From: Octopus sinensis
Taxonomy: Eukaryota
Direction: 5' to 3'
NCBI RefSeq assembly: GCF_006345805.1
Contig: NC_043014.1
Coordinates: 8,122,001-8,186,000, forward strand
DNA length: 64,000 nt
Made by a program: the position numbers. Shown here piece by piece: positions 5,599 to 11,106 of the stretch (position 1 is the stretch's first letter; every line of letters starts with the position of its first letter).

Positions 5599-8500
5599 GT
5601 ATATATATATATATATATATATCCGTAATAATGAAGGGTGAAATTAATTAATTTGGAAAAATTATCAATTACACCAAGTAGTCTTCGGCATGTAAAAGCC
5701 TCATTCGAGGAAAATTTAAGTAATACTAAGCAATAAGGGTTTAGCAACGAGTTGCCTTACCACATACCGAATTTAGAAATAGCAGTCAAAGGGTTATAGC
5801 TATTTCTTCTACTAAAAAGGGAGATCTCAGTAAAAACAGCATTTGGAAGGCAGACACAAACAGGTAAGAGAGAATGAATTGACTGCAATCTATCATACAT
5901 TTTTTTAGTTATCCACGGACGTACGTTTCGAAATCAAGTTTTTAGGAAAGCATAAGAATTAAATATTAAATATTAAATAATTCTATCTTACCGAAACTTC
6001 TTTTCTCTTCAGCGTAGAATACTATAATCATAAATGATTATATATTGAATTTTGAGATACCAGAAGGCACCAACTCAACTCAGTATCAGAGCGAGCTAGA
6101 ATCCGCAACTGGTATCACCGAATTCAATTTGTGAATGAAACGATTGTGTCAACAGCCCCCTCCCACCCGCGTGTAGCCAAAACAAGATGCTGTGGTCATC
6201 TACTGAGATAAAATATGGTTATCCGTAATAATGAAGGGTGAAATTAATTAATTTGGAAAAATTATCAATTACACCAAGTAGTCTTCGGCATGTAAAAGCC
6301 TCATTCGAGGAAAATTTAAGTAATACTAAGCAATAAGGGTTAGCAACGAGTTGCCTTACCACATACCGAATTTAGAAATAGCAGTCAAAGGGTTATAGCT
6401 ATTTCTCTACTAAAAAGGGAGATCTCAGTAAAAACAGCATTTGGAAGGCAGACACAAACAGGTAAGAGAGAATGAATTGACTGCAATCTATCATACATTT
6501 TTTTAGTTATCCACGGACGTACGTTTCGAAATCAAGTTTTTAGGAAAGCATAAGATTAAATATTAAATATTATAATTCTATCTTACCGAAACTTCTTTTC
6601 TCTTCAGCGTAGAATACTATAATCATAAATGATTATATATTGAATTTTGAGATACCAGAGGCACCAACTCAACTCAGTATCAGAGCGAGCTAGAATCCGC
6701 AACTGGTATCACCGAATTCAATTTGTGAATGAAACGATTGTGTCAACAGCCCCCTCCCACCCGCGTGTAGCCAAAACAAGATGCTGTGTCATCTACTGAG
6801 ATAAAATATGGTTATCCGTAATAATGAAGGGTGAAATTAATTAATTTGGAAAAATTATCAATTACACCAAGTAGTCTTCGCAGGTAAAGCCTCATTCGAG
6901 GAAAATTTAAGTATACTAAGCAATAAGGGTTTAGCAACGAGTTGCCTTACCACATACCGAATTAGAAATAGCAGTCAAAGGGTTATAGCTATTTCTTCTA
7001 CTAAAAAGGGAGATCTCAGTAAAAACAGCATTTGGAAGGCAGACACAAACAGGTAAGAGAGAATGAATTGACTGCAATCTATCATACATTTTTTTAGTTC
7101 CACGGTTAGTAGTTACGTACGTTTCGAAATCAAGTTTTTAGGAAAGCATAAGAATTAAAATTAAATATTAAATAATTCTATCTTACCGAAACTTTTTCTC
7201 TTCAGCGTAGAATACTATAATCATAAATGATTATATATTGAATTTTGAGATACCAGAAGGCACCAACTCAACTCAGTATCAGAGCGAGCTAGAATCCGCA
7301 ACTGGTATCACCGAATTCAATTTGTGAATGAAACGATTGTGTCAACAGCCCCCTCCCACCCGCGTGTAGCCAAAACAAGATGCTGTGGTCATCTACTGAG
7401 ATAAAATATGGTTATCCGTAATAATGAAGGGTGAAATTAATTAATTTGGAAAAATTATCAATTACACCAAGTAGTCTTCGGCATGTAAAAGCCTCATTCG
7501 AGGAAAATTTAAGTAATACTAAGCAATAAGGGTTTAGCAACGAGTTGCCTTACCACATACCGAATTAGAAATAGCAGTCAAAGGGTTATAGCTATTTCTT
7601 CTACTAAAAAGGGAGATCTCAGTAAAAACAGCATTTGGAAGGCAGACACAAACAGGTAAGAGAGAATGAATTGACTGCAATCTATCACACATTTTTTTAG
7701 TTATCCACGGACGTACTTTTCGAAATCAAGTTTTTAGGAAAGCATAAGAATTAAATATTAAATATTAAATAATTCTATCTTACCGAAACTTCTTCTCTTC
7801 AGCGTAGAACATAAATGATTAATATAATGATATATTTGAATTTGATACCAGAAGGCACCAACTCAACTCAGTATCAGAGCGAGCTAGAATCCGCAACTGG
7901 TATCACCGAATTCAATTTGTGAATGAAACGATTGTGTCAACAGCCCCCTCCCACCCGCGTGTAGCCAAAACAAGATGCTGTGGTCATCTACATTTTACTG
8001 AGATCTCCCTTTTTAGTAGAAGAAATAGCTATAACCCTTTGACTGCTATTTCTAAATTCGGTATGTGGTAAGGCAACTCGTTGCTAAACCCTTATTGCTT
8101 AGTATTACTTAAATTTTCCTCGAATGAGGCTTTTACATGCCGAAGACTACTTGGTGTAATGATAATTTTTCCAAATTAATTAATTTCACCCTTCATTATT
8201 ACGGATAACCATTTTATCTCAGTAGATGACCACAGCATCTTGTTTTGGCTACACGCGGGTGGGAGGGGGCTGTTGACACAATCGTTTCATTCACAAATTG
8301 AATTCGGTGATACCAGTTGCGGATTCTAGCTCGCTCTGATACGAGTTGAGTTGGTGCCTTCTGGTATCTCAAAATTCAATATATAATCATTTATGATTAT
8401 AGTATTCTACGCTGAAGAGAAAAGAAGTTTCGGTAAGAGATAGAATTATTTAATATTTAATATTTAATTCTTATGCTTTCCTAAAAACTTGATTTCGAAA

Positions 8501-11072
8501 CGTACGTCCGTGGATAACTAAAAAAATGTGTGATAGATTGCAGTCAATTCATTCTCTCTTACCTGTTGTGTCTGCCTTCCAAATGCTGTTTTTACTGAGA
8601 TCTCCCTTTTTAGTAGAAGAAATAGCTATAACCTTTGACTGCTATTCTAAATTCGGTATGTGGTAAGGCAACTCGTTGCTAAACCCTTATTGCTTAGTAT
8701 TACTTAAATTTTCCTCGAATGAGGCTTTTACATGCCGAAGACTACTTGGTGTAATTGATATTTTTCCAAATTAATTAATTTCACCCTTCATTATTACGGA
8801 TAACCATATTTTATCTCAGTAGATGACCACAGCATCTGTTTTGGCTACACGCGGGTGGGAGGGGCTGTTGACACAATCGTTTCATTCACAAATTGAATCG
8901 TGATACCAGTTGCGGATTCTAGCTCGCTCTGATACTGAGTTGAGTTGGTGCCTTCTGGTATCTCAAAATTCAATATATAATCATTTATGATTATAGTATT
9001 CTACGCTGAAGAGAAAAGAAGTTTCGGTAAGATAGAATTATTTAATATTTAATATTTAATTCTTATGCTTCCTAAAAACTTGATTCGAAACGTACGTCCG
9101 TGGATAACTAAAAAAATGTATGATAGATTGCAGTCAATTCATTCTCTCTTACCTGTTTGTGTCTGCCTTCAAATGCTGTTTTTACTGAGATCTCCCTTTT
9201 TAGTAGAAGAAATAGCTATAACCCTTTGACTGCTATTTCTAAATTCGGTATGTGGTAAGGCAACTCGTTGCTAAACCTTATTGCTTAGTATTACTTAAAT
9301 TTTCCTCGAATGAGGCTTTTACATGCCGAAGACTACTTGGTGTAATTGATAATTTTTCCAAATTAATTATTTCACCCTTCATTATTACGGATAACCATAT
9401 TTTATCTCAGTAGATGACCACAGCATTCTTGTTGGCTATACGCGGGTGGGAGGGGGCTGTTGACACAATCGTTTCATTCACAAATTGAATTCGGTGATAC
9501 CAGTTGCGGATTCTAGCTCGCTCTGATACTGAGTTGAGTTGGTGCCTTCTGGTATCTCAAAATTCAATATATAATCATTTATGATTATAGTATTCTACGC
9601 TGAAGAGAAAAGAAGTTTCGGTAAGATAGAATTATTTAATATTTAATATTTAATTCTTATGCTTTCCTAAAAACTTGATTTCGAAACGTACGTCCGTGGA
9701 TAACTAAAAAAATGTATGATAGATTGCAGTCAATTCATTCTCTCTTACCTGTTTGTGTCTGCCTTCCAAATGCTGTTTTTACTGAGATCTCCCTTTTTAG
9801 TAGAAGAAATAGCTATAACCCTTTGACTGCTATTTCTAAATTCGGTATGTGGTAAGGCAACTCGTTGCTAACCCTTATTGCTTAGTATTACTTAAATTTT
9901 CCTCGAATGAGGCTTTTACATGCCGAAGACTACTTGGTGTAATTGATAATTTTTCCAAATTAATTAATTTCACCTTCATTATTACGGATAACCCATTTTA
10001 TCTCAGTAGATGACCACAGCATCTTGTTTTGGCTACACGCGGGTGGGAGGGGGCTGTTGACACAATCGTTTCATTCACAAATTGAATTCGGTGATACCAG
10101 TTGCGGATTCTAGCTCGCTCTGATACTGAGTTGAGTTGGTGCCTTCTGGTATCTCAAAATTCAATATATAATCATTTATGATTATAGTATTCTACGCTGA
10201 AGAGAAAAGAAGTTTCGGTAAGATAGAATATTTAATATTAATATTTAATTCTTATGCTTTCCTAAAAACTTGATTTCGAAACGTACGTCCGTGGATAACT
10301 AAAAAAATGTATGATAGATTGCAGTCAATTCATTCTCTTTACCTGTTTGTGTCTGCCTTCCAAATGCTGTTTTTACTGAGATCTCCTTTTTAGTAGAAGA
10401 AAAATAGCTAAACCCTTTGACTGCTATTTCTAAATTCGGTATGTGGTAAGGCAACTCGTTGCTAAACCCTATTGCTTAGTATTACTTAAATTTTCCTCGA
10501 ATGAGGCTTTTACATGCCGAAGACTACTTGGTGTAATGATAATTTTCAAAATTAATTAATTTCACCCTTCATTATTACGGATAACCATATTTTATCTCAG
10601 TAGATGACCACAGCATCTTGTTTTGGCTACACGCGTGGGGAGGGGGCTGTGTTGACACAATCGTTTCATTCACAAATGAATTCGGTGATACCAGTTGCGG
10701 ATTCTAGCTCGCTCTGATACTGAGTTGAGTTGGTGCCTTCTGGTATCTCAAAATTCAATATATAATCATTATGATTATAGTATTCTACGCTGAAGAGAAA
10801 AGTTTCGGTAAGATAGAATTATTTAATATTAATATTTAATTCTTATGCTTTCCTAAAAACTTGATTTCGAAACGTACGTCCGTGGATAACTAAAAAAATG
10901 TATGATAGATTGCAGTCAATTCATTCTCTCTTACCTGTTTGTGTCTGCCTTCCAAATGCTGTTTGTACTGAGATCTCCCTATTTAGTAGAAGAAATAGCT
11001 ATAACCCTTTGACTGCTATTTCTAAATTCGGTATGTGGTAAGGCAACTCGTTGCTAAACCCTTATTGCTTAG

Positions 11073-11106
<34 letters not shown>

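What the first reader, a model, noticed from the sequence alone, without database searches (positions are those of the whole stretch)
5621..11075. 5.5 kb tandem-inverted array of ~600 bp hammerhead ribozyme units: candidate cephalopod retrozyme
Seen: about nine near-identical non-coding units, about 4 in one orientation and about 5 inverted, 3' ends pointing outward into (TA)n. Seven units carry a complete type I hammerhead (CUGAAGA, long stem II, GAAA, palindromic stem III ACGUACGU, GUC triplet, stem I). Known: Penelope-like elements carry minimal hammerheads in their pLTRs, palindromic stem III favours dimeric cleavage between tandem copies, and animal non-LTR retrozymes are hammerhead tandem repeats yielding circular RNAs. 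Inference: transcripts self-cleave to ~600 nt monomers or circles that a Penelope RT copies repeatedly into long concatemers. Single-base indels between units look like long-read error, so copy number is uncertain.
Basis: partly seen in the sequence, partly recalled or inferred. Interest (0 to 1): 0.85.

Follow-up and report, generated by a model that had tools for sequence, protein, structure and literature searches.

The report
Octopus hammerhead-ribozyme retroelement array
A 5.5 kb block of roughly 600-base repeats in an octopus genome is a non-coding mobile element carrying a self-cutting RNA motif, and the way it is inserted matches the known habits of Penelope-like retrotransposons, so it is a new example of a known kind of element.

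Summary
Window 5621-11075 is a head-to-head double array of a ~595-600 nt non-coding unit: 3.98 unit-equivalents on the minus strand and 5.19 on the plus strand. Both outer ends run into (TA)n.

All 9 unit junctions carry CUGAAGAG, and 7 of 9 also carry GAAACGUACGUC. Rfam aligns Hammerhead_1 end to end, but below threshold: 17.8 bits against a cut-off of 34.

I found five further, diverged loci of the same family in the window (58-65% identity between loci). Two of them carry their own hammerhead, and stem I covaries at 5 of 6 pairs.

Across the six loci:
- all 11 arm 3' ends fall at two sites about 100 nt apart;
- 10 of 11 ends abut (TA)n;
- 5' ends vary;
- 5 of 6 loci have an inverted 5'-truncated arm.

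These are the published hallmarks of Penelope-like element insertion, including the "tail" at one end.

The host is Octopus. No Penelope reverse transcriptase lies in the window.

Verdict: a hammerhead-bearing, non-autonomous, Penelope-type retroelement (animal retrozyme class), a new member of a known kind. Unit differences look like long-read errors.

The parts
5565..5620 (.). (AT)n microsatellite at the outer (3') end of the minus-sense arm; presumed half of the target
   Evidence: Tandem Repeats Finder; sequence
5621..7991 (-). Minus-sense arm. From the junction outward: unit 312-595, three full units, then unit 1-296. It ends at 3' site 2, the end that carries the 'tail'.
   Evidence: blastn; nhmmer
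7992..11075 (+). Plus-sense arm. From the junction outward: unit 83-595, four full units, then unit 1-196. It ends at 3' site 1, the end without the tail.
   Evidence: blastn; alignment A2
11076..11104 (.). (TA)14.5 at the outer end of the plus-sense arm
7985..7998 (.). Asymmetric head-to-head junction. The two 5' ends lie at unit 312 and unit 83, so the structure is not a perfect palindrome.
   Evidence: AT-skew flip
9594..9700 (+). Representative hammerhead: stem I UCUACG/CGUGGA, CUGAAGA, a ~74-nt imperfect stem II hairpin, GAAA, palindrome ACGUACGU, and cleavage after C9694
   Evidence: descriptor scan; fold; Rfam RF00163 aligned over model positions 1-45 at 17.8 bits, E 0.06
8406..8514 (+). 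Hammerhead, both core boxes intact (cleavage after C8508)
9000..9104 (+). Hammerhead with both core boxes intact; 1-nt deletions shorten the base of stem II
10191..10295 (+). Hammerhead, intact
10784..10886 (+). Hammerhead, core intact; 3-nt deletion in the 5' strand of stem II
5912..6018 (-). Hammerhead, intact
6510..6613 (-). Hammerhead, intact
7098..7211 (-). Hammerhead disrupted by a 9-10 nt insertion at the cleavage site; stem I is no longer adjacent
7704..7808 (-). Hammerhead with C>A in stem III (AAGUACGU, palindrome broken)
17367..17545 (-). Diverged family member. The main arm ends at site 2 in (TA)n. A short inverted arm (17510-17543) ends near site 1 in (TA)n.
   Evidence: nhmmer; sequence; inverted repeat
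39446..39530 (-). Solitary 5'-truncated fragment (unit ~100-184) between two (TA)n tracts; its 3' end is at site 1
   Evidence: blastn; sequence; alignment A2
49166..49800 (.). Diverged head-to-head pair. Arms 49171-49421 and 49445-49695 are 251 nt long and 95% complementary. The left arm ends at site 1 and the right arm at site 2, both in (TA)n. It has its own hammerhead at ~49430-49512 (CCCAUG CUGAUGA ... GAAACGCGUA|CAUGGG).
53742..54070 (.). Diverged head-to-head pair (43-nt arms, 98% complementary). Both ends are at site 2. The left end is in (TA)n; the right end is not.
57227..58140 (.). Diverged member. A 145-nt inverted arm ends at site 1. A plus-sense arm of 1.28 units (57373-58140) ends at site 2. 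Both ends are in (TA)n. A degenerate hammerhead lies at ~57774-57836.

Best explanation
The array belongs to a family of non-coding, ~600-nt, hammerhead-bearing retroelements of Octopus. These are non-autonomous elements of the animal 'non-LTR retrozyme' type, mobilised by the reverse transcriptase/endonuclease of a Penelope-like element (PLE).

Proposed mechanism. Steps marked S are shown by the sequence; steps marked I are inferred.
1. (I) A donor array is transcribed into multi-unit RNA.
2. (I, from published in vitro PLE work) The PLE protein cuts both strands of a (TA)n tract.
3. (S for the two sites, I for the enzyme) Each DNA end primes reverse transcription at one of two internal start sites about 100 nt apart: unit ~185-202, or unit ~296. 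Both lie just after an ACCCUU-like motif.
4. (S) Each cDNA runs through several units towards the RNA 5' end and stops at a variable point.
5. (S for the structure, I for the process) The two cDNAs are joined head to head. This gives two outward-pointing arms, only one of which carries the extra ~100 nt 'tail'.
6. (I, not tested) In multimeric RNA the hammerheads, whose stem III is the palindrome ACGUACGU, can pair two by two and cut the transcript into ~600-nt units that may be circularised. That RNA fate is probably not what templated this array.
For: Family and mobility.
- Six loci in 64 kb are 58-65% identical between loci but 95-100% identical between the two arms of one locus.

3' ends.
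- 11 of 11 arm ends fall in two clusters. Five are at site 1 and six at site 2 (alignments A2 and A3).
- 10 of 11 ends abut (TA)n, which covers only 3.2% of the window.
- 5' ends differ at every locus, and 0 of 11 lie at the hammerhead cleavage site.
- 5 of 6 loci have an inverted 5'-truncated arm. In 4 of those 5 the ~100-nt extension is at one end only.

Match to published PLE features.
- 5' truncation, partial tandems, an adjacent inverted truncated copy, a tail at one end and (TA)n bias (PMC8557442, passages).
- Cleavage and extension of both strands, two internal reverse-transcription start sites that define the tail, and unprocessed multi-copy RNA as template (PMC11167929, main text).

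Hammerhead.
- Core boxes are present at 7 of 9 sites.
- The minimum-free-energy fold gives stems I and II.
- Stem I is paired in 100% of cells, with changes on both sides at 5 of 6 pairs across three diverged members. Slid controls pair at 14-48%.
- The predicted dimer is 12.4 kcal/mol more stable than two monomers and forms the 8-bp intermolecular stem III.
- Rfam Hammerhead_1 is the best family and aligns full length.

RNA-level structure.
- The sense unit folds with z = -7.8, against -2.9 for the antisense. A member at ~52% identity over the whole unit gives -5.8 against -3.3.

Non-coding.
- No Pfam family was found in the ORFs inside the array. Unit GC is 35%.

Not an assembly fold-back.
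- The junction is asymmetric.
- The two flanks are different dispersed repeats.
- Four short loci show the same architecture.
Against: - No PLE reverse transcriptase or GIY-YIG endonuclease is in the window. I scanned 143 ORFs of at least 70 aa (of 200 found, 158 passed a complexity filter). The only reverse-transcriptase hit, at 40147-40626, looks LINE-like. The partner is therefore inferred only from insertion anatomy.
- The hammerhead scores below Rfam's gathering cut-off (17.8 against 34 bits) and was missed in the 64-kb and 5.9-kb scans.
- The local hammerhead folds are not more stable than shuffles (z = -0.8 to -1.4).
- The hammerheads of the two diverged loci deviate at the base of stem II and get no Rfam hit.
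- The 'tail' here is ~100 nt, against the published 30-40 bp.
- All ends carry TA microhomology with the target, whereas the published in vitro start sites were not homologous to the cut DNA.
- Support for a linear multimer template rests on one substitution.
- Copy number and some unit defects may be assembly errors.
- No RNA data were available.
Confidence: 0.8

Rival explanations
1. Transcripts self-cleave and are ligated into ~600-nt RNA circles. A PLE reverse transcriptase then runs round one circle several times and makes each multi-unit arm (rolling-circle reverse transcription, the published retrozyme model).
For: - Tandem units are near-identical once likely sequencing errors are set aside.
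- The sense RNA is highly self-paired: 67% of bases pair in a circular fold.
- The published model for animal retrozymes proposes exactly this (PMC7761336, passages; PMC7229834, passages).
- No arm starts at the cleavage site, as expected for an endless template.
Against: - The A>G variant at alignment column 31 occurs in one unit only of each arm, and in the same position relative to the junction. One circle would give the same base in every unit.
- In vitro, a PLE used unprocessed RNA, and hammerhead mutants inserted equally well (PMC11167929).
- A multimeric linear transcript also explains the absence of 5' ends at the cleavage site.
Confidence: 0.25
2. A small retroelement insertion with short head-to-head arms came first. 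Each arm was later expanded at the DNA level by unequal crossing-over or replication slippage, as in satellite birth.
For: - Four other two-armed loci have arms of at most 1.3 units.
- A preprint proposes local amplification of retrozyme-derived repeats (10.64898/2026.07.22.740005, Discussion read).
Against: - It needs independent expansion of both arms to similar size with almost no divergence.
- Locus 57227-58140 already crosses a unit boundary without an array.
- Multi-copy head-to-tail insertions are described for PLEs and their non-autonomous relatives.
Confidence: 0.15
3. The inverted double array is an assembly or read artefact, such as a fold-back chimeric long read or a collapsed or expanded repeat.
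For: - The deletion-biased homopolymer indel pattern shows poorly polished long-read sequence.
- The single shared variant is symmetric about the junction.
Against: - The junction is asymmetric (unit 312 against unit 83).
- The arms differ in length by 1.2 units and end at different unit positions.
- The two flanks are different repeat families, not inverted copies of each other.
- The same head-to-head, (TA)n-flanked architecture occurs at four short loci that any read would span.
Confidence: 0.05
4. A DNA-level foldback or MITE-like element with terminal inverted repeats that inserts at TA.
For: - Inverted arms flanked by TA-rich sequence.
- Locus 53742-54070 has identical 43-nt termini.
Against: - In 4 of 5 two-armed loci the two termini differ by ~100 nt.
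- Arms are direct tandem multimers of a directional unit.
- The inner junction differs at every locus.
- RNA structure and G-U pairs are specific to the sense strand.
- A hammerhead with a covarying stem I is conserved.
Confidence: 0.03

Closest known systems
Metazoan non-LTR retrozymes (Cervera & de la Pena 2020, PMC7229834; review PMC7761336; passages read)
   Same: - Non-coding, low-GC head-to-tail tandem repeats, each unit carrying a type I hammerhead with a weak, palindromic helix III.
- Highly self-paired sense RNA.
- Found in genomes that also hold PLEs, and described in a mollusc (mussel).
   Different: - The unit is ~600 nt, against ~170-400 nt in that work. It lies within the 51-972 bp range of the 2026 vertebrate survey.
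- Stem II is a ~74-nt hairpin rather than ~4 bp with a loop-loop contact.
- Circular RNA was not tested here.
- Here the insertion ends are visible and point to PLE machinery. The review says the repeats show no motif that reveals the partner.
Penelope-like element pseudo-LTR hammerheads (Cervera & de la Pena 2014, PMC4209133; passages read)
   Same: - Type I topology with a palindromic 15.x-16.x region, implying action as a dimer in tandem copies.
- Helix II longer than usual.
- G10.1-C11.1 kept in the young family.
   Different: - Helix II is about ten times longer than the 6-8 bp described.
- Stem I is 6 bp, against 4-5 bp.
- The unpaired base between positions 9 and 10.1 appears in the 49-kb locus but not in the main family.
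- No open reading frame lies between copies.
PLE insertion architecture and internal initiation (Craig et al. 2021, PMC8557442, passages; Frangieh et al. 2024, PMC11167929, main text)
   Same: - 5' truncation and partial tandems.
- An inverted 5'-truncated copy at the 5' side.
- An extension ('tail') at one end only, defined by two reverse-transcription start sites.
- AT-rich or (TA)n targets.
- Both DNA strands extended.
   Different: - The tail is ~100 nt, not 30-40 bp.
- The ends show TA microhomology with the target.
- The element has no reverse-transcriptase gene.
- Both arms are multi-unit.
Non-autonomous Chlamys PLE derivatives such as MRC1 (Craig et al. 2021, passage)
   Same: [quoted passage not shown]
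   Different: - They come from a green alga.
- Most Chlamys elements lack hammerheads.
- Similarity to a partner could not be tested here.
Retrozymes as PLE derivatives in vertebrates (Li, Clavereau & Pollet 2026 preprint, 10.64898/2026.07.22.740005; Results part 1 and Discussion read)
   Same: The same conclusion: hammerhead tandem repeats are non-autonomous relatives of PLEs.
   Different: Their evidence is co-occurrence and pseudo-LTR sequence trees in vertebrates, and they state that other animals were not examined. The evidence here is insertion anatomy in a cephalopod.

Membership tests
Hammerhead ribozyme, type I (Rfam RF00163) | Conserved core CUGANGA ... GAAA ... UH cleavage triplet, in type I order | tested here: met
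   All 9 sites have CUGAAGAG, and 7 of 9 also have GAAACGUACGUC. Diverged loci have CUGAUGA/GAAACGCGUA and CUGACGA/GAAACGUACGUU.
Hammerhead ribozyme, type I (Rfam RF00163) | Stems I and II flank the core; stem I is open-ended and supported by covariation | tested here: met
   Minimum-free-energy folds give both stems. Stem I has 5 of 6 pairs changed on both sides, is 100% paired, and slid controls pair at 14-48% (only 3 sequences).
Hammerhead ribozyme, type I (Rfam RF00163) | Score at or above Rfam's gathering cut-off | tested here: not met
   17.8 bits against 34, E 0.06 on a 151-nt slice, full-length model alignment with a 72-nt insert in stem II. No hit in the 64-kb or 5.9-kb scans, nor at the two diverged loci.
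Hammerhead ribozyme, type I (Rfam RF00163) | Self-cleavage at the predicted site | not testable with these tools
   Needs in vitro transcription of monomer and dimer.
PLE-type dimeric hammerhead | Palindromic helix III region that allows an intermolecular stem between two copies | tested here: met
   ACGUACGU at 7 of 9 sites. The cofold forms the 8-bp duplex: -55.6 kcal/mol for the dimer against -43.2 for two monomers. ACGCGU is present at the 49-kb locus.
PLE-type dimeric hammerhead | [quoted passage not shown] | tested here: inconclusive
   Absent in the main family, where G follows CUGAAGA and pairs with C11.1. Present in the fold of the 49-kb locus.
Animal non-LTR retrozyme | Head-to-tail tandem repeats, each with a type I hammerhead, non-coding, with GC below 45% | tested here: met
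   (GC 35.3%).
Animal non-LTR retrozyme | Unit size about 150-450 nt | tested here: not met
   The unit is 595-600 nt. This lies within the 51-972 bp range reported in the 2026 preprint.
Animal non-LTR retrozyme | Highly self-paired sense RNA | tested here: met
   z = -7.8 sense against -2.9 antisense. A second member gives -5.8 against -3.3.
Animal non-LTR retrozyme | Expressed as unit-length circular RNA | not testable with these tools
   No transcriptome data available.
PLE-mobilised (non-autonomous Penelope-like) element | Fixed 3' ends, variable 5' truncation, partial tandems | tested here: met
   11 of 11 3' ends fall at two sites. 5' ends differ at every locus.
PLE-mobilised (non-autonomous Penelope-like) element | Inverted 5'-truncated copy adjacent to the 5' end | tested here: met
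   5 of 6 loci.
PLE-mobilised (non-autonomous Penelope-like) element | 'Tail' extension at one end only (published as 30-40 bp) | tested here: met
   4 of 5 two-armed loci have the extension on one arm only. Its length is ~100 nt, longer than published.
PLE-mobilised (non-autonomous Penelope-like) element | AT-rich or (TA)n target | tested here: met
   10 of 11 ends abut (TA)n, against 3.2% of window bases in (TA)>=5 runs.
PLE-mobilised (non-autonomous Penelope-like) element | Sequence shared with an autonomous PLE (pseudo-LTR or 3' end) | not testable with these tools
   No PLE ORF in the window. No eukaryotic genome collection was available.

The most novel reading that the evidence does not exclude
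The 5.5-kb locus is the product of one very recent insertion. In that event a dimeric PLE enzyme cut both strands of a (TA)n tract and copied two molecules of the same unprocessed multi-unit transcript, one from each of two start sites 100 nt apart. It would then be a natural in vivo record of symmetric two-strand target-primed reverse transcription, which so far has been seen only in vitro. It would also imply that the family is currently active in Octopus and that its hammerhead serves the RNA's own fate (circles) rather than insertion.
Probability: 0.35. Interest if true: 0.6.

Novelty: new member of a known kind. Interest (0 to 1): 0.45.

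Why it matters
Animal hammerhead tandem repeats (retrozymes) are thought to be moved by Penelope-like elements. A 2020 review says the repeats themselves show no motif that identifies the partner (PMC7761336). The 2026 preprint that argues for PLE ancestry covers vertebrates and rests on co-occurrence and sequence trees.

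In this window the insertion ends are legible at six loci of one family. They show the PLE signature: two start sites, a tail at one end, an inverted truncated arm and a (TA)n target. That is independent structural support from a mollusc.

It also gives a concrete family in which three questions can be asked: whether circles or linear multimers are the template, what the hammerhead is for, and which octopus PLE is the partner. Three of the loci lie inside a haem peroxidase gene and a fourth lies about 100 bp from its first exon seen here, so the family also shapes octopus gene structure.

Tried and rejected
- Rfam at gathering threshold on the whole window found nothing. At E<=10 on 5.9 kb it gave no hammerhead, only chance microRNA and sRNA hits on (TA)n. 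Only a 151-nt slice gave the sub-threshold Hammerhead_1 match. The slices at 57740-57860 and 49405-49535 gave no hammerhead.
- Tandem Repeats Finder cannot report a 600-nt period.
- ARAGORN found no tRNA-like part in the window.
- The Pfam scan for a PLE partner found none. The second covered 143 ORFs of at least 70 aa, out of 158 that passed an entropy filter and 200 found. I dropped 15 by hand: those lying in microsatellite tracts or inside the family loci.
- The reverse-transcriptase fragment at 40147-40626 matches LINE-1 ORF2 and R2 only weakly (E 0.015). I treated it as an unrelated LINE remnant.
- A search for a hammerhead-cleaved 5' end among the 11 arms found none.
- A search for further variants shared between the two arms found only homopolymer indels with no symmetry.
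- The fold-back read artefact and the MITE reading are rejected for the reasons given under the rival explanations.
Family copy number, the autonomous partner and the empty site therefore stayed unchecked.
- I searched one peroxidase exon alone. The exons were not joined into a spliced model.

Full report
**What is there**

Window 5621-11075 is a head-to-head double array of a non-coding unit. I defined one unit from one predicted cleavage site to the next (9695-10289, 595 nt) and searched the window with it by blastn.
- The minus-sense arm reads, from the junction outward: unit 312-595 (7991-7710), three full units (7709-7115, 7104-6516, 6515-5918), then unit 1-296 (5917-5620).
- The plus-sense arm reads: unit 83-595 (7993-8508), four full units (8509-9098, 9099-9694, 9695-10289, 10290-10880), then unit 1-196 (10881-11077).
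- The arms therefore hold 3.98 and 5.19 unit-equivalents.
- The repeat finder shows start-to-start spacings of 589-603 and exact inverted matches of up to 443 nt between the arms.
- AT skew changes sign at about 7990.
- The outer ends meet (AT)29 at 5565-5622 and (TA)14.5 at 11076-11104.
- The window has no N.

**Differences between units**

Compared with the majority at each position, the 11 pieces carry 12 substitutions and 57 indel events in 5455 nt. Of the indels, 49 are deletions and 8 insertions. 45 are single bases, and 37 of those lie in runs of the same base. This deletion-biased homopolymer pattern is what poorly polished long reads give, not what mutation gives.

The true units are therefore probably almost identical and close to 600 nt.

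**The hammerhead**

On the sense strand each unit boundary reads UCUACG CUGAAGA G...C GAAA CGUACG UC / CGUGGA.
- All 9 boundaries keep CUGAAGAG, and 7 of 9 also keep GAAACGUACGUC.
- The other two are 7704-7808, where stem III reads AAGUACGU, and 7098-7211, where 9-10 nt are inserted at the cleavage site.
- A descriptor scan required the core, at least 4 contiguous stem II pairs, at least 5 stem I pairs and a UH triplet. It gave 7 hits on both strands of the whole window, all inside the array.
- The minimum-free-energy fold of 9588-9706 forms stem I (6 bp) and a long imperfect stem II of about 74 nt. Its energy is not unusual for the composition (z = -1.4).
- A cofold of two copies is 12.4 kcal/mol better than two monomers and forms the 8-bp ACGUACGU duplex between them. 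This is the double-hammerhead arrangement proposed for such palindromes (PMC4209133, passages).
- Rfam found no hammerhead in the 64-kb or 5.9-kb scans. On a 151-nt slice its best family was Hammerhead_1, aligned over the whole model (positions 1-45) at exactly 9594-9700. It scored 17.8 bits against a cut-off of 34, with a 72-nt insertion in stem II. Formally the Rfam membership score is not met.

**The family elsewhere in the window**

- 17367-17545
- 39446-39530
- 49166-49800
- 53742-54070
- 57227-58140

Identity between loci is 58-65%. The two arms within a locus are 95-100% complementary: 251 nt at 49 kb, 92 and 75 nt at 57 kb, and 43 nt at 53.7 kb. Each locus was therefore made from one source.

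Two of these loci reach the hammerhead and have their own versions: CCCAUG CUGAUGA ... GAAACGCGUA/CAUGGG, and UUUGGG CUGACGA ... GAAACGUACGUU/CUCAAA. On the three-member alignment, stem I is paired in every cell and 5 of its 6 pairs change on both sides. Partners slid by 1-3 columns pair at only 14-48%. Three sequences are few, but together with the conserved core this is good evidence that the hammerhead is selected.

The two old copies deviate at the base of stem II and get no Rfam hit. They may be inactive.

**Insertion anatomy**

I aligned every arm end with an internal read-through copy of the same locus (A2 and A3). All 11 arm 3' ends fall in two clusters.
- Site 1 is at unit ~185-202, after ...GCUAAACCCUUAUU.... 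Five ends lie here: main right, the 17-kb inverted arm, 39 kb, 49 kb left and 57 kb left.
- Site 2 is at unit ~296, 6-17 nt after ...UUUCACCCUU.... Six ends lie here: main left, 17 kb, 49 kb right, both ends at 53.7 kb, and 57 kb right.
- Ten of the 11 ends abut (TA)n. Perfect (TA)>=5 runs cover only 3.2% of the window.
- The 5' ends differ at every locus, and none lies at the cleavage site.
- Five of the six loci have an inverted 5'-truncated arm. In four of those five, only one arm carries the extra ~100 nt between the two sites.
- Conservation between members is highest across unit 101-250, around and between the two sites, as expected for a module recognised by the mobilising enzyme.

**Comparison with what is known**

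Published passages describe PLE insertions as 5'-truncated and partially tandem, often with an inverted 5'-truncated copy at the 5' side. They describe a 30-40 bp tail at one end only and a (TA)n bias in some clades, and they describe non-autonomous derivatives that form multicopy head-to-tail insertions (PMC8557442).

In vitro, a PLE protein cut and extended both strands of an AT-rich target. It started reverse transcription at two internal sites whose spacing is the tail. It used unprocessed RNA, and hammerhead mutants inserted equally well (PMC11167929, main text).

The six loci match this list point by point. Two things differ: the tail is ~100 nt, and all ends share TA microhomology with the target.

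The element also fits the animal non-LTR retrozyme description: non-coding, low-GC tandem repeats with a type I hammerhead and highly self-paired RNA (PMC7229834). The sense unit folds with z = -7.8 against -2.9 for the antisense. The 57-kb member gives -5.8 against -3.3. Its unit is longer than the 170-400 nt of that paper but within the 51-972 bp range of a 2026 preprint, which argues from vertebrate data that retrozymes derive from PLEs.

**How the array was probably made**

Fixed 3' ends on both outer sides, variable inner ends and near-identical arms fit priming from both cut strands of one (TA)n tract, followed by joining of the two cDNAs head to head.

The template crossed several cleavage sites, so it was either an uncleaved multimer or a circle. 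One observation separates these. The only substitution shared by two units (A>G at alignment column 31) is in L1 (7709-7115) and R1 (8509-9098). Each is the first full unit next to the junction, while the outer units have A.
- Copying one circle repeatedly would give the same base in every unit.
- Two copies of the same linear multi-unit transcript, read towards its 5' end, would give exactly this pattern.

This rests on one site in error-prone sequence. I therefore prefer the linear template only moderately.

**Artefact and other rivals**

A fold-back read would give a symmetric junction and mirrored flanks. Here the junction is asymmetric (unit 312 against unit 83) and the arms end at different unit positions.

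The flanks 5200-5564 and 11105-11330 belong to two different dispersed repeat families, with 12 and 17 other hits in the window. Four short loci also show the same architecture.

A MITE or foldback reading fails on three counts: the unequal termini, the directional tandem units and the strand-specific RNA features.

**Context**

A peroxidase exon (42908-43378, minus strand) is 98% identical to an Octopus vulgaris protein and 100% to an O. sinensis protein. I searched that exon alone and did not join the exons.

Pfam places exons of this gene at 34510-34749, 42911-43381, 55725-55967 and about 57034-57130. Three family loci therefore lie in its introns, and one lies about 100 bp from its first exon seen here.

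No PLE reverse transcriptase or GIY-YIG domain was found among the 143 ORFs scanned. The only reverse-transcriptase fragment (40147-40626) resembles LINE enzymes weakly.

**Novelty**

A full-text search for octopus, cephalopod, Penelope, hammerhead and retrozyme (any three terms) listed no paper on a cephalopod retrozyme.
- The giant squid genome paper lists 235 Rfam hammerhead hits (PMC6962438, passage).
- An O. vulgaris repeat paper lists 30 recently active Penelope families (PMC13282606, passage).
- The 2020 retrozyme paper contains neither "octopus" nor "cephalopod" in its main text.

Supplementary tables of these papers were closed and could hold cephalopod entries. I could not search any eukaryotic genome, so copy number, partner element and empty site are unknown.

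The finding is a new member of a known kind. Its value is the unusually clear insertion anatomy that ties a retrozyme-like array to PLE machinery.

Noticed in passing
window 7098-7114: The only long insertion in the array (9-10 nt, AACUACUAA in the sense strand) sits between U16.1 and the cleavage-site C of one hammerhead, and 2 nt just downstream are lost. It could be an assembly error or a scar at the cleavage/ligation point.
   Followed up: partly
window 7810-7850: The innermost partial unit of the minus-sense arm has a scrambled ~40-nt stretch just upstream of its hammerhead: a 9-nt deletion plus small insertions relative to all other units.
   Followed up: partly
window 9805-9840 and equivalents; 49590-49640; 57925-57990: A 9-bp hairpin (GAAAUAGC.../...GCUAUUUC) is conserved in three diverged members. 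All changes are A>G on the 5' strand, which keeps G-U pairs only in the sense RNA (read from the alignment). It is a candidate protein-binding element just upstream of 3' site 1.
   Followed up: partly
window 34510-57337, minus strand: Exons of an animal haem peroxidase gene (Pfam An_peroxidase). The best hits are Octopus vulgaris 'peroxidase mlt-7-like' and O. sinensis 'chorion peroxidase-like'. The exons were not joined.
   Followed up: partly
window 40147-42200, plus strand: Degraded reverse-transcriptase ORFs (RVT_1, E 1.7e-7) with weak PDB similarity to LINE-1 ORF2 and R2. This looks like a LINE remnant in a peroxidase intron, not a Penelope-like element.
   Followed up: partly
window 5200-5564 and 11105-11330: The two flanks of the array are members of two abundant dispersed repeat families, with 12 and 17 other hits in the window at 70-93% identity. 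They are probably SINE-like. ARAGORN finds no tRNA gene in the window.
   Followed up: partly
window 4686-5050; 23318-25211; 33542-34514; 58250-58500; 59880-60600; 62947-63999: Large microsatellite tracts: (AT)184, GATA/GACA arrays, and regions open in all six frames. (TA)>=5 runs number 91 in 64 kb.
   Followed up: no
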